From the IMG/VR virus record IMGVR_UViG_2529293223_000015, positions 1-16,212 of that record: a DNA stretch of 16,212 nt; one strand, written 5' to 3'. The position numbers were made by a program. Source of the DNA: a virus. Lineage: Duplodnaviria; Heunggongvirae; Uroviricota; Caudoviricetes. This document shows positions 3,639 to 6,600 of the stretch, in pieces (position 1 is the stretch's first letter; every line of letters begins with the position of its first letter).

Positions 3639-6600
3639 TGACCACTTCAGTTGTCATGACAGGAAGATGGTTATGCGTAAGTGACGGGAGTTTTTCAATA
3701 GACGTGCGATTCATAGACATGTCCTTTCGAATATTTTGATTTACCCCTTTTGAGAGGGTGACCGGGCGCTCAAAACCGTCGAAAGTCGGCGGGCGTATTT
3801 CCATTGCTGGTATTGTATTAGCCGCACACCCGGTCATAAACCAAGAATTCTGGACACAAAAAAACCACATGGCTATCGGGTGTGGATACCGCTTTCGAGG
3901 TGTTTTGAGCACCGCGGGGAAATGTAAACTGCAAACCTGAAACTGTCAACACCGTCAGGTTCCAATCATCGGGTGGTGAGACGCACAGGGTTGGAACTAC
4001 CGGGAAACCGACCGGCGAGCTTTTCAGCTCCCCCATGCGCCCCACCATAATTCAGATGTGCGCGTGCATACGACAATAAAAAACACGCTCGCGGCGTGTG
4101 TCTGTCGCGGTCTCTATCCGGGGTTCCAATCCCGACGCCAGATTTTGCTGGCGCGTGAGGAATATAGCCCCGGACAATGTGTCTGGTCAAGCACCTACAT
4201 AATTCGTTCTACGTATCTGTCCATCTCCAGCCTGATATCAAGCATCATCAACATGCCATCAATAACCCCTTCCGCTTTCTGCAGGCGCTTGCCAATACAG
4301 GTATCCGAACACCCATGTTTCCGTGCCAGACTCATAAAAGTCATTCCACCTACGTAATAATCCACCAGCAAATCGTGCAAATCCTGATTTTTCTTGTTCA
4401 ACCGGGCCATACAGCCACAAATTATCATTGCATCATCATCAGAACACTGAGGGCGTGATTTCACTTTCGACGGAATTAACCCTTTAAAACCAGCAGCGAT
4501 CGACGCCCAGGATACATCTTCATGAGTGTTTGCAGCCCAAGCCCCCCACCGTTCCATAACCTGCTGAATATCACGCGCCATCGTTATCACCTGTGATTTC
4601 GTAAATCTTCACGCCCAGTCGCCCACCAGGAACGAGCTGACCGCGCACAATATTGATTTCATCAAACTGCTCGTCGTCTATGAGTAGTCCGGCATGCGTC
4701 AGCGCATCCAGTGGTGCTTTCAGGATATTGTCCAGGTCACGACGGCGCTTATCCGGTGGCTCTGCAATAATCTTTATCGCCAGCCTTCCGGACAGGTTTA
4801 ATTTCAGCCGCTGCTGGCGAACAATTAGCGTCACATCACGGCGATAACGCTCACCAACTTTTGATACAAAATATGTGCAGCCACGACGTCGCCAGTAAGT
4901 ATTCACCGTCGGCGGATAAGGTAAAATAAACTCATGGCGCATCAGCGCAGCACCTCCTGCACCATTTTTTCAAACTTTCCAACTTTGGTTTCCAGCTCTG
5001 CCACACAATCAACGAGCTCATCCACCGCTTTTTGTGCGCGATGTTTCGCCTGCATCAGTTCCCTGAGCGCTGGCACCATATCCCGACGAATGGCATCTTT
5101 TGTTACACCTGTTTTTTCCAGTTGTTCCGCCTGTCGCAACATTTCCTGCGCGTGTTTACGCAATTGTTCAGGGGTAAAAGTCATTGTCTGGTTGTTCAAA
5201 AGAAACGCTCCATCTTACTGCTGTCGGTACGTGTATTGCTGTATCTGCGCGGCTGGGGCTGCCGCATTGGGGTGGAAAGAACCTGTGCGCTTTCCTGGTC
5301 CACAGGCAGAAAATGTCCGTTATAAAAACGCCGGTAAATCGTCCCCAGAGAACCGTTACGTTGTTTCGTGATATTAATTTCTGCTATGCCTGTGGCCTGT
5401 GTATCCGGGTTGTACACTTCATCCTAAAGTGCGCAAAATCATTTGATACCGTTTTGAATTTTTTTTGATACCACCCAAAACGGCACAACGAAAAATTATT
5501 TGATACTAATCGGGAGTGCTTTTAGGGTATGGCTGAACCCTGAATAGCTTAGTATTTAGTCGCTTTCTTGCGCGCTTGTTCAGGAACCTGATGTAACGAT
5601 ATTGATTAAATTTGTGTACCACGGCCCGCTCCTTATTCGCTCGTAAATATTCGCCGCGCTTCCCTCCACGATTAATCGCATTCATCGTTATCTCGTGATA
5701 CCACTCACCGTCCAGTTCGTAGAATGTGCTTTCATGGCTGCCAATAAAATCAAAATTTGACGCCTGATACACAACACCTGCACGCCCGCAACGTTCGTCT
5801 GCAAAGGACTGAACCCACTCCACTGACGGATACAGTAACCTGATGGTTTTCAGCGCGTAGCTGATGGCCCGTGATTCAGAGTTGCGGGGCATGTCGTCGT
5901 GTAGCCACATGCGGTTCAGTTCCATATAGCCCCGGTTATCCGTTTCAAGCACAACGCGACGCCCTGAGTTGGGGTTAAGGGCATATCCCCACTGAAGAAC
6001 ACCAACCAGATCACGTCCACTGAATACGCCCAGATGCAACCAGGAGTTATTCACAAAACGGCGGGAATAATGCTTTGTCTGAATGATTGTGCGGGCCAGC
6101 CAGCAGGATATGGTTTCAACGCGCAGCTCCCTTGAACCATAGCCGACAATCCGGCCTTCATACTCAATAACGCAGGGTTTTGTCAGAATGCGTGATTTCT
6201 TCTCTTTTCCCACAATACAGCTCCGTGGGATGCTCCCGGGCACTCGATATGACAATGTAACGTTTACAGCGAGGACATTTGATTTCTATATGCTTAAAAC
6301 CTCCTTTAAACAGCAATTTATTGCAATTTTTACAACGAACAGAGTCCATAATTTCCCCCAGTGTAATAACAGGATATAGCTGCCCGGAGGGCTGGGGGTA
6401 TTTAATCACACTTGATGCAAACCGACGATCGATATGATGCTATCGATCGTCATAAACTATACAAACTGATTATTTAATCGCCTGGTCTGAACGCTCTCAC
6501 CTCGTCCAGTGTGGGCAACAGAGAAAGTTGTTCTTTCATCTCCCGCTGACAGCGATAAATCTCATCGTTGCGCTCAACAATGGCCTGTATCATCGCTGTG

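What the first reader, a model, noticed from the sequence alone, without database searches (positions are those of the whole stretch)
6424..6451. Perfect GATC-bearing palindrome upstream of com: possible Dam-methylation-gated operator
GACGATCGATA-N6-TATCGATCGTC has a GATC in each arm, 18 bp apart. In Mu, mom transcription is repressed by OxyR binding to unmethylated GATC sites upstream of the promoter and needs the late activator C. Here the Dam sites sit inside a dyad suited to a dimeric regulator, a different architecture from the three dispersed Mu sites as I recall them.
Basis: partly seen in the sequence, partly recalled or inferred. Interest (0 to 1): 0.65.

Follow-up and report, generated by a model that had tools for sequence, protein, structure and literature searches.

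The report
Dam/OxyR operator of a Mu-like mom promoter
The GATC-bearing palindrome is this prophage's version of the well-studied methylation-sensitive OxyR repressor site upstream of phage Mu's com-mom operon, so it is a real control element of an already known kind.

Summary
GACGATCGATA-N6-TATCGATCGTC lies at 6424..6451, with GATC at 6427 and 6445, 18 bp apart. All genes here are on the minus strand. The dyad lies 22 nt after the stop of a DUF4376 tail gene and 74 nt before the com ATG (6349).

The claim that this architecture differs from Mu is wrong. Mu has GACGATCGAAT-caatta-AATCGATCGGT at the homologous place, with the same 18-bp spacing, plus a third GATC 13 bp further on. In the window that third position reads CATC.

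In every enteric com-mom lineage examined, the ATA(A)CC activator box begins 29 bp after the second GATC.

The dyad is the centre of a 46-bp symmetric site (6415..6460). This site has two OxyR half-sites 31 bp apart, which fits the extended geometry of reduced OxyR. E. coli agn43 has the same layout.
- The upstream half-site, ATAGTTTATGACGAT, scores 8/10. Only two positions in the 16-kb window score that high.
- The promoter-proximal half-site scores only 5/10.

Best explanation: unmethylated DNA binds OxyR and silences mom, and Dam methylation of the two GATCs prevents binding. Binding was not tested here.

It is a two-GATC allele of a known element, and its interest is low.

The parts
6424..6451 (.). 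Perfect palindrome GACGATCGATA-N6-TATCGATCGTC. It forms the two inner quarter-sites of the predicted operator.
   Evidence: It is invariant apart from the loop and the outermost pairs in 21 distinct type-B sequences.
6445..6448 (.). GATC-I, the promoter-distal Dam site (within CGATCG).
   Evidence: It aligns with Mu GATC-I.
6427..6430 (.). GATC-II, a Dam site 18 bp downstream of GATC-I in the direction of transcription.
   Evidence: It is invariant in the alignments with Mu and agn43.
6446..6460 (-). Predicted OxyR half-site A, ATAGTTTATGACGAT (8/10 to ATAGnTnnnAnCTAT). It ends in the GAT of GATC-I.
   Evidence: one of only two positions in the window scoring 8/10 or better. The same register holds in Mu (7), L049 (8), L008 (8), L031 (9) and agn43 (8).
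6415..6429 (-). Predicted OxyR half-site C, ATCGTCGGTTTGCAT (5/10, degenerate). It starts in GATC-II and lies 31 bp from half-site A.
   Evidence: The homologous half-site scores 7 in Mu, 8 in agn43, 9 in L009 and 8 in L211.
6414..6417 (-). CATC at the position of Mu's third GATC (13 bp after GATC-II). It cannot be methylated by Dam.
   Evidence: it reads CATC in all 21 distinct type-B sequences.
6389..6402 (-). AATACCCCCAGCCC, the presumed binding box of the Mor/C-family late activator. ATACC begins 29 bp after GATC-II, as ATAACC does in Mu.
   Evidence: Mu late promoters carry CATAACCCC. Copies of AATACCCC on the gene strand lie at 14976..14983 and upstream of the protease gene of the same prophage.
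6371..6378 (-). Candidate -10 region (TATATC / TATCCT) of the mom promoter. This is inferred only.
   Evidence: Read from the sequence. The sigma-70 consensus scan found nothing, as expected for an activator-dependent promoter.
6164..6349 (-). com (61 aa, zinc ribbon).
   Evidence: PF10122, E = 2.5e-7. 82.7% DNA identity to Mu com-mom.
5506..6213 (-). mom (235 aa, GTG start overlapping com).
   Evidence: PF25680, E = 2e-75.
6474..7100 (-). Upstream DUF4376 gene, the last gene of the tail-fibre cluster. It takes the place that gin holds in Mu.
   Evidence: PF14301. RefSeq annotation of the identical prophage.

Best explanation
The palindrome is the core of the methylation-sensitive OxyR operator of the com-mom late promoter of a Mu-like prophage. 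It is homologous to 'region I' upstream of Mu Pmom.

Proposed mechanism: host OxyR, as a reduced tetramer, binds a 46-bp dyad-symmetric site at 6415..6460. One dimer sits on half-site A (ATAG-N7-CGAT, ending in GATC-I). The other sits on half-site C (ATCG-N7-GCAT, beginning in GATC-II). The two GATCs are the mirror-image inner contacts, which is why the sequence reads as a palindrome.

On unmethylated DNA, and perhaps hemimethylated DNA, bound OxyR keeps the adjacent activator-dependent promoter silent. Dam methylation of both GATCs prevents binding. The Mor/C-family late activator, bound at AATACCCCCAGCCC 29 bp downstream, can then switch on com-mom.

Shown here:
- homology with the Mu element;
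- conserved geometry across lineages;
- matches to the OxyR half-site consensus;
- identity of the flanking genes.

Inferred, not shown: OxyR binding, dam dependence and the transcription start in this variant.
For: 1. Mu carries GACGATCGAAT-caatta-AATCGATCGGT at the same place, with the same 18-bp spacing. MAFFT aligns the block TATAG...CGATCGA...ATCGATCG without gaps.

2. In Mu, Dam methylation of the GATCs in this region prevents OxyR binding and repression (PMC7549136, PMC3378877, PMC2909390).

3. The geometry is fixed across diverged enteric lineages. Half-site A starts at I-12, the GATC-I to GATC-II spacing is 18 bp, and ATA(A)CC starts at II+29 in Mu, type B, L008, L049 and L050. Of 123 distinct mom-upstream regions, relatives with Mom at least about 73% identical almost all carry GATC spacings of 18+13, 18, 13, 31+13 or 19+13. 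Relatives at 65% or below do not.

4. Half-site A scores 8/10, and only 2 of 16,198 positions in the window reach that. Mean consensus scores over 12 clusters peak sharply at register 0 (6.4 and 6.25; no shifted register exceeds 5.4, and most score 1-3.7).

5. In L009 and L211 the third GATC is lost but the half-site improves (ATCGTTTGTATCTAT 9/10; ATCGTTTGTATCGAT 8/10). This suggests selection acts on the OxyR half-site motif rather than only on the GATCs.

6. E. coli agn43, a Dam/OxyR-controlled locus, has the same layout: ATAG-N8-GATC, then spacings of 19 and 13. It aligns with only a single one-base gap.

7. The A-to-C offset is 31 bp. Half-sites for reduced OxyR are 32 bp apart in opvAB, where that distance is called canonical, and the reduced form protects an extended site (PMC4856963, PMC2881104).

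8. The centre of the 46-bp site (6437.5) equals the centre of the palindrome.
Against: - The promoter-proximal half-site C scores only 5/10 here, the weakest among the enteric lineages. The third GATC is missing. OxyR affinity and dam dependence could therefore be weaker than in Mu, or lost.
- The oxidised-geometry 37-bp consensus gives only 12/20, a score reached at 5 places in the window.
- Dyad symmetry extends 4-5 bp inward of each GATC, into the spacer between the half-sites. It does so in most lineages and with different bases. The 15-bp OxyR consensus does not explain this.
- No binding or expression data exist for this variant.
- My recollection of the exact Mu footprint coordinates could not be checked, because the original papers are not held.
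Confidence: 0.75

Rival explanations
1. The dyad is an operator for a different symmetric dimeric regulator, phage-encoded or from the host, and not for OxyR. The GATCs make its binding methylation-sensitive.
For: - In type B the arms are perfect over 11 bp.
- The base pairs 2-4 nt inside each GATC are mutually complementary in 9-10 of 11 lineages, with different bases. The total is 44 complementary pairs against 23 in shuffles, reached in 0 of 20,000 shuffles.
- These positions lie outside the OxyR half-sites.
- Half-site C is weak here.
Against: - The homologous Mu element is an experimentally established OxyR site.
- The conserved ATAG 12 bp upstream of GATC-I, and the OxyR-like improvement of half-site C in L009 and L211, are unexplained by a factor that binds only the dyad.
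- L050 and L075 keep the GATC geometry with almost no inner dyad.
- The dyad occurs nowhere else in the window.
- The lineages compared are not independent.
Confidence: 0.08
2. The palindrome acts at the RNA level as a hairpin. It would terminate or stabilise the tail-fibre transcript that ends 22 nt upstream, insulating the toxic mom gene from read-through.
For: The minus-strand RNA folds into a 12-bp stem (the 11-bp arms plus one more pair inside the spacer) within a -21.7 kcal/mol structure (z = -3.2; 3 of 200 shuffles fold as well). It lies just after the DUF4376 stop codon.
Against: - There is no U tract: the stem is followed by GGUUUGCAUC. The terminator scan does not call it.
- The same prophage uses canonical terminators elsewhere, such as GAAGCCGGTAAATCCGGCTTTTTTT.
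- In Mu the dyad overlaps the gin stop codon and has mismatches. In L050 and L075 there is no stem, yet the GATC spacing is kept.
- Within type B the variation breaks the outer pairs without compensation, while the CGATCGATA/TATCGATCG core stays invariant. That is conservation at the sequence level.
Confidence: 0.07
3. The element is a decaying relic. It is homologous to the Mu operator but no longer functional, having lost the third GATC and degraded half-site C. The palindrome would then be merely two copies of the self-complementary CGATCG.
For: - Half-site C scores 5/10 and CATC replaces GATC-III.
- Two copies of a self-complementary hexamer automatically form 6-bp inverted arms.
- A palindrome of this size is not rare by chance: 12 of 200 shuffles.
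Against: - The block from TATAG to CATC is invariant across 21 distinct type-B sequences, while the flanking spacer and the loop vary.
- The type-B element is found in 49 of 5,426 E. coli genomes at 89-100% identity.
- Both GATCs persist in a prophage where GATC is at 0.16 of expectation.
- Other lineages also retain exactly two GATCs, either the 18-bp pair or the 13-bp pair.
Confidence: 0.1

Closest known systems
Phage Mu Pmom upstream region ('region I'): the OxyR (MomR) binding site with three Dam sites.
   Same: - It occupies the same position, directly upstream of the activator box of the com-mom promoter.
- It has the same ATAG-N8-GATC-N14-GATC scaffold, the same 18-bp spacing of two CGATCG (PvuI) sites, and a near-identical dyad.
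- The distance from GATC-II to the ATA(A)CC box is the same, 29 bp.
   Different: - The third GATC, 13 bp after GATC-II, reads CATC.
- Half-site C scores 5/10 against 7/10 in Mu.
- The arms are perfect over 11 bp, whereas Mu pairs 10 of 12.
- The upstream gene is a DUF4376 tail gene and not gin. In Mu the dyad overlaps the gin stop codon.
- The promoter downstream of the box is 11 nt shorter and not alignable.
E. coli agn43 (flu) regulatory region: the Dam/OxyR phase-variation operator.
   Same: It reads ATAG-N8-GATC, then a second GATC, then ATCG-N7-CGAT. The half-sites score 8/10 each. It aligns with the window element with a single 1-nt gap.
   Different: - The spacings are 19 and 13 bp, with three GATCs.
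- From memory and not checked here, the operator lies at or downstream of the transcription start rather than upstream of an activator site.
- agn43 is a heritable ON/OFF switch. Phase variation is not known for mom (PMC2909390).
Salmonella/P22 gtr and opvAB Dam/OxyR switches.
   Same: GATCs are embedded in OxyR half-sites, with pairs 13 bp apart flanking a half-site in gtr. Half-sites are 32 bp apart for reduced OxyR. Methylation blocks binding.
   Different: Those systems have three or four half-sites and alternative occupancy that generates phase variation. Only one pair of half-sites is evident here.

Membership tests
Mu-type Pmom Dam/OxyR operator | Lies immediately upstream of the activator-dependent promoter of a com-mom operon. 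| tested here: met
   com is PF10122 and mom is PF25680. The box AATACCCCCAGCCC begins 29 bp after GATC-II, as in Mu. The prophage encodes a Mor/C-family activator.
Mu-type Pmom Dam/OxyR operator | Sequence homology to the Mu region. | tested here: met
   The alignment is gap-free, with invariant TATAG, CGATCGA and ATCGATCG. blastn alone does not detect it.
Mu-type Pmom Dam/OxyR operator | Three clustered GATC sites with spacings of 18 and 13 bp. | tested here: not met
   Only GATC-I and GATC-II are present. The third position reads CATC in all type-B copies. Other natural lineages also keep only two sites.
Mu-type Pmom Dam/OxyR operator | OxyR binds unmethylated DNA and methylation abolishes binding. 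Expression is dam-dependent. | not testable with these tools
   Needs EMSA or footprinting and reporter assays.
OxyR operator (LysR-type tetramer site) | Two half-sites resembling ATAGnTnnnAnCTAT. | tested here: inconclusive
   Half-site A scores 8/10, one of the top 2 positions in the window. Half-site C scores 5/10.
OxyR operator (LysR-type tetramer site) | Half-site spacing of 22 bp (oxidised form) or 32 bp (reduced form). | tested here: inconclusive
   The A-to-C spacing is 31 bp here and in Mu, and 32 bp in agn43. The canonical value is 32 bp (PMC4856963).
Intrinsic (Rho-independent) terminator | A GC-rich stem followed by a U tract. | tested here: not met
   The stem is present but only three U follow it. 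It is not called by the scan.
Dam/OxyR phase-variation switch (agn43, gtr, opvAB) | Heritable ON/OFF states with alternative methylation patterns. | not testable with these tools
   Architecture alone cannot show bistability. It is unknown even for Mu mom (PMC2909390).

The most novel reading that the evidence does not exclude
The two-GATC, perfectly palindromic type-B operator may not be a simple copy of the Mu site. The spacer symmetry that covaries between lineages could mark contacts of a second symmetric factor or an alternative OxyR register. With only two methylatable sites, the element might act as an epigenetic switch that gives heterogeneous mom expression among lysogens or induced cells.
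Probability: 0.1. Interest if true: 0.5.

Novelty: new member of a known kind. Interest (0 to 1): 0.2.

Why it matters
The finding matters little by itself. Dam/OxyR control of Mu mom has been a textbook example of methylation-dependent gene regulation since the 1980s.

The comparison does add three things:
- It gives a clear structural reading. The palindrome is the pair of inner quarter-sites of an extended, reduced-form OxyR operator.
- It shows that natural com-mom cassettes keep a rigid scaffold (spacings of 18, 13 and 29 bp) while losing individual GATCs. That is a ready-made allelic series for asking how many methylatable sites OxyR gating needs.
- It prevents the element from being mistaken for a terminator or a novel operator when Mu-like prophages of E. 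coli are annotated.

Tried and rejected
- **Terminator or RNA hairpin.** Rejected because there is no U tract and no compensatory changes, the stem is not conserved across lineages, and the scan was negative.
The dyad is unique in the window.
- **Oxidised-geometry 37-bp OxyR consensus.** It gives 12/20, a score also reached at 4 other places in the window, so it does not discriminate. The half-site analysis in the extended geometry was more informative.
- **Original Mu papers** (Bolker & Kahmann 1989, Sun & Hattman 1996, Hattman & Sun 1997) are not held. The supplement of the Fis paper is not held either. The exact Mu footprint coordinates therefore rest on secondary citations and my memory.
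- **Genome-contig scan** with a single Mom protein returned only 3 loci. The viral and metagenome scans were needed.
- **NCBIfam** gave no hit for Com or Mom.
- **blastn** does not align the promoter region with Mu. The match starts inside com. Homology of the operator only shows in anchored alignments.
- **C-box upstream of the lysis gene** of the same prophage. None was found.

Full report
**Observation.** The window reads GACGATCGATA-TGATGC-TATCGATCGTC at 6424..6451 on the + strand. The arms are perfect over 11 bp, and GATC lies at 6427 and 6445, 18 bp apart. The coordinates and description are correct.

All genes in this part of the window are on the minus strand:
- a tail-fibre gene (8456..7050);
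- a DUF4376 gene ending at 6474;
- com (6349..6164, PF10122);
- mom (6213..5506, PF25680).

Read in the direction of transcription, the dyad lies 22 nt after the DUF4376 stop and 74 nt before the com ATG.

The window is the right end of a Mu-like prophage of E. coli. The 91-nt regulatory stretch (6385..6475) is 100% identical to a copy at about 339 kb in FDAARGOS_943, which has a second copy next to glcA at 99% over 801 nt. The prophage has a transposase, a Mor/C-family activator and Mu-type head and tail genes, but no gin and no invertible segment.

**Is it more than chance?** As a bare palindrome it is only marginal. Twelve of 200 dinucleotide shuffles contain an inverted repeat with arms of 11 bp or more, and the window holds a longer one at 8301..8330.

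Three other points make it non-random:
- The 24-bp core is unique, and absent from 200 shuffles even with 3 mismatches allowed.
- GATC is heavily depleted. There are 7 sites in the 10.8-kb prophage part against 45 expected, an O/E of 0.16. In Mu itself there are 72 against 162, and the two closest GATC pairs in the whole Mu genome are those at Pmom.
- The element is conserved. This is the strongest point.

**Homology with Mu.** Mu has ...ATATAGAAAACGACGATCGAATCAATTAAATCGATCGGTAATACAGATCGATTATGCCCCAATAACC... upstream of com. The first two GATCs lie in CGATCG sites 18 bp apart, inside a dyad that pairs 10 of 12 positions. The Fis paper independently reports that PvuI cuts the Pmom fragment into 60, 18 and 182 bp (PMC3378877). 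A third GATC follows 13 bp later.

MAFFT aligns the window with Mu without gaps from TATAG to the activator box. TATAG, CGATCGA and ATCGATCG are invariant. The dyad and its 18-bp spacing are shared with Mu. What differs is that the third position reads CATC in the window and in all 21 distinct sequences of its type.

**Wider comparison.** I collected com-mom loci from E. coli genomes, IMG/VR, metagenomes and GTDB genomes. They gave 123 distinct upstream regions.
- All relatives with Mom at least 90% identical carry the 18-bp pair, alone or with the 13-bp partner.
- More distant enteric-type lineages (Mom about 73-88% identical) show 18+13, 18 only (L211, L009, L078), 13 only (the L185 group, where site I reads TATC), 31+13, or 19+13.
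- Relatives at 65% or below show no such cluster.
- In Mu, type B, L008, L049 and L050, ATA(A)CC begins exactly 29 bp after GATC-II, although the intervening sequence differs.

The module is thus a rigid scaffold in which individual GATCs can be lost, with two usually retained in the enteric-type lineages. Within type B, the block from TATAG to CATC is invariant. The 6-nt loop, the outermost arm pairs and the spacer before the box vary. The type-B element occurs in 49 of 5,426 complete E. coli genomes.

**Which protein?** For Mu the literature is clear. Dam methylation of the GATCs upstream of Pmom prevents binding of OxyR, which otherwise represses mom (PMC7549136 citing Sun & Hattman 1996; PMC3378877; PMC2909390).

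I scored the published half-site consensus ATAGnTnnnAnCTAT, with these results:
- Only two positions in the whole window reach 8/10. One is ATAGTTTATGACGAT at 6460..6446 on the minus strand, ending in the GAT of GATC-I.
- The same register scores 7 in Mu, 8 in L049, 8 in L008, 9 in L031 and 8 in E. coli agn43.
- A second half-site runs from the ATC of GATC-II for 15 bp. It scores 7 in Mu (where its 3' end is GATC-III), 8 in agn43, 7 in L008 and L050, and 8 in L075.
- That second half-site scores 9 in L009 (ATCGTTTGTATCTAT) and 8 in L211 (ATCGTTTGTATCGAT). Both have lost the third GATC but moved towards the OxyR consensus.
- Averaged over 12 sequence clusters, both half-sites peak sharply at this register (6.4 and 6.25; no shifted register exceeds 5.4, and most score 1-3.7). 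A chance GATC pair in coding DNA scores 4 and 3.

The two half-sites are 31 bp apart, and 32 bp apart in agn43, whose GATCs are spaced 19 and 13 bp. Reduced OxyR protects an extended site made of two pairs of major grooves separated by a helical turn (PMC2881104). In opvAB, half-sites 32 bp apart are called canonical for the reduced form (PMC4856963). In gtr, GATC pairs 13 bp apart flank a half-site.

The full predicted operator is 6415..6460, 46 bp long. Its centre, 6437.5, is exactly the centre of the palindrome. The palindrome is therefore most simply read as the two mirror-image inner quarter-sites (CGATC / GATCG plus flanks) of an OxyR tetramer site, each carrying a Dam target.

**Promoter context.** AATACCCCCAGCCC lies at 6402..6389 on the minus strand. 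It resembles the CATAACCCC motif of Mu late promoters (oligonucleotide sequences in PMC4461284).

A near-identical 14-mer, AATACCCCCGGCCC, lies on the same strand at 14983..14970 inside the N homologue; no shuffle contained two matches. Mu's P promoter also lies inside N, though at a different relative position.

AATACCCC also occurs on the gene strand in the intergenic region upstream of the protease gene of the same prophage, where Mu has its I promoter. I found no such box upstream of the lysis gene.

The -10 element and the start site are inferred only. The candidate is TATATC/TATCCT at 6378..6371. The sigma-70 scan finds nothing, as expected for an activator-dependent promoter.

**Rivals.**
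- **Terminator or RNA hairpin.** The RNA stem is stable (-21.7 kcal/mol, z = -3.2). But it has no U tract, the scan does not call it, and this prophage uses canonical terminators elsewhere. In Mu the dyad overlaps the gin stop codon. L050 and L075 keep the GATC geometry without a stem. Type-B variation is not compensatory.
- **Different symmetric regulator.** This cannot be excluded. Positions 2-4 inside each GATC are mutually complementary in 9-10 of 11 lineages, with different bases (ATA/TAT, ATT/AAT, ACT/AGT). The total is 44 complementary pairs against 23 in shuffles. These positions lie in the spacer between the OxyR half-sites. The lineages are related, the positions are A/T-rich, and alternative OxyR registers exist (Mu ATCAATTAAATCGAT scores 7/10). 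I treat this as an unexplained residue rather than evidence for a new factor.
- **Relic.** Half-site C is weak here (5/10) and one GATC is gone. The tight conservation of the block argues for function.

**Verdict.** The interpretation 'Dam-methylation-gated operator' is very probably right, by homology with an experimentally characterised element. The claimed architectural novelty and the implied new dimeric regulator are not supported. This is a two-GATC allele of the Mu Pmom OxyR/Dam operator, so it is a new member of a known kind. OxyR binding, dam dependence and the promoter start remain untested for this variant.

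Noticed in passing
window 5401-16212 and Mu genome (L216): GATC is strongly avoided. There are 7 sites against 45 expected in the prophage part of the window (O/E 0.16), and 72 against 162 in Mu (O/E 0.44). GATC has the lowest O/E of all 16 palindromic tetramers in Mu; in the window only CTAG (1 site) is marginally lower (0.22 against 0.23). The two closest GATC pairs in all of Mu are those at Pmom. PMC6602927 also notes GATC-free regions in E. coli prophages.
   Followed up: partly
window 8301-8330: The longest perfect inverted repeat in the window is CAGAACGGGGAA-N6-TTCCCCGTTCTG, with 12-bp arms. It lies inside the 5' part of the 468-aa tail-fibre gene (coding ...QNGEYDFPVLPG...). 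Its function is unknown.
   Followed up: no
window 14970-14983 (minus strand): AATACCCCCGGCCC, a near-identical copy of the box next to the mom promoter, lies inside the DNA-circularisation (N) gene. It may be the counterpart of Mu's P promoter, but it sits at a different relative position in N.
   Followed up: partly
loci L056-L215: com-mom cassettes show a natural allelic series of the GATC cluster: 18+13, 18 only, 13 only (site I reads TATC), 31+13, and 19+13 as in agn43. Mom relatives at 65% identity or below have no cluster. L209, L210 and L212 (about 70-72% identity) have none either.
   Followed up: partly
GATC-N14-GATC spacer in 11 lineages; window 6431-6444: Dyad symmetry of the three base pairs 2-4 nt inside each GATC is kept with different bases in different lineages. 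The OxyR half-site consensus does not explain it.
   Followed up: partly
window 6474-10261: There is no gin and no invertible G segment. Instead, two tail-fibre plus chaperone sets lie in tandem on one strand: tail protein with assembly protein, then tail-fibre N-terminal-domain protein with DUF4376. The DUF4376 region is about 76-78% identical to tail-fibre regions of phiP27 and Rac-SA53.
   Followed up: no
L217 (plasmid pPS1T_138kb, NZ_CP180608.1) and NZ_CP065615.1: A truncated DUF4376-com-mom remnant that still carries the operator sits among IS elements on a 138-kb plasmid. FDAARGOS_943 carries two copies of this prophage type, at about 339 kb and about 4.49 Mb.
   Followed up: no
L218 14640-14690 and 6960-7000 (same prophage, outside the window): The same hairpin-plus-T-run, GAAGCCGGTAAATCCGGCTTTTTTT, precedes both the lysis gene and the protease gene. 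It is a repeated canonical terminator-like element at operon boundaries.
   Followed up: no
NZ_CP182374.1 (hits H26/H88): One E. coli genome matches the DUF4376 end and the operator, but is annotated with mom directly adjacent and no com. This may be a deletion of com.
   Followed up: no
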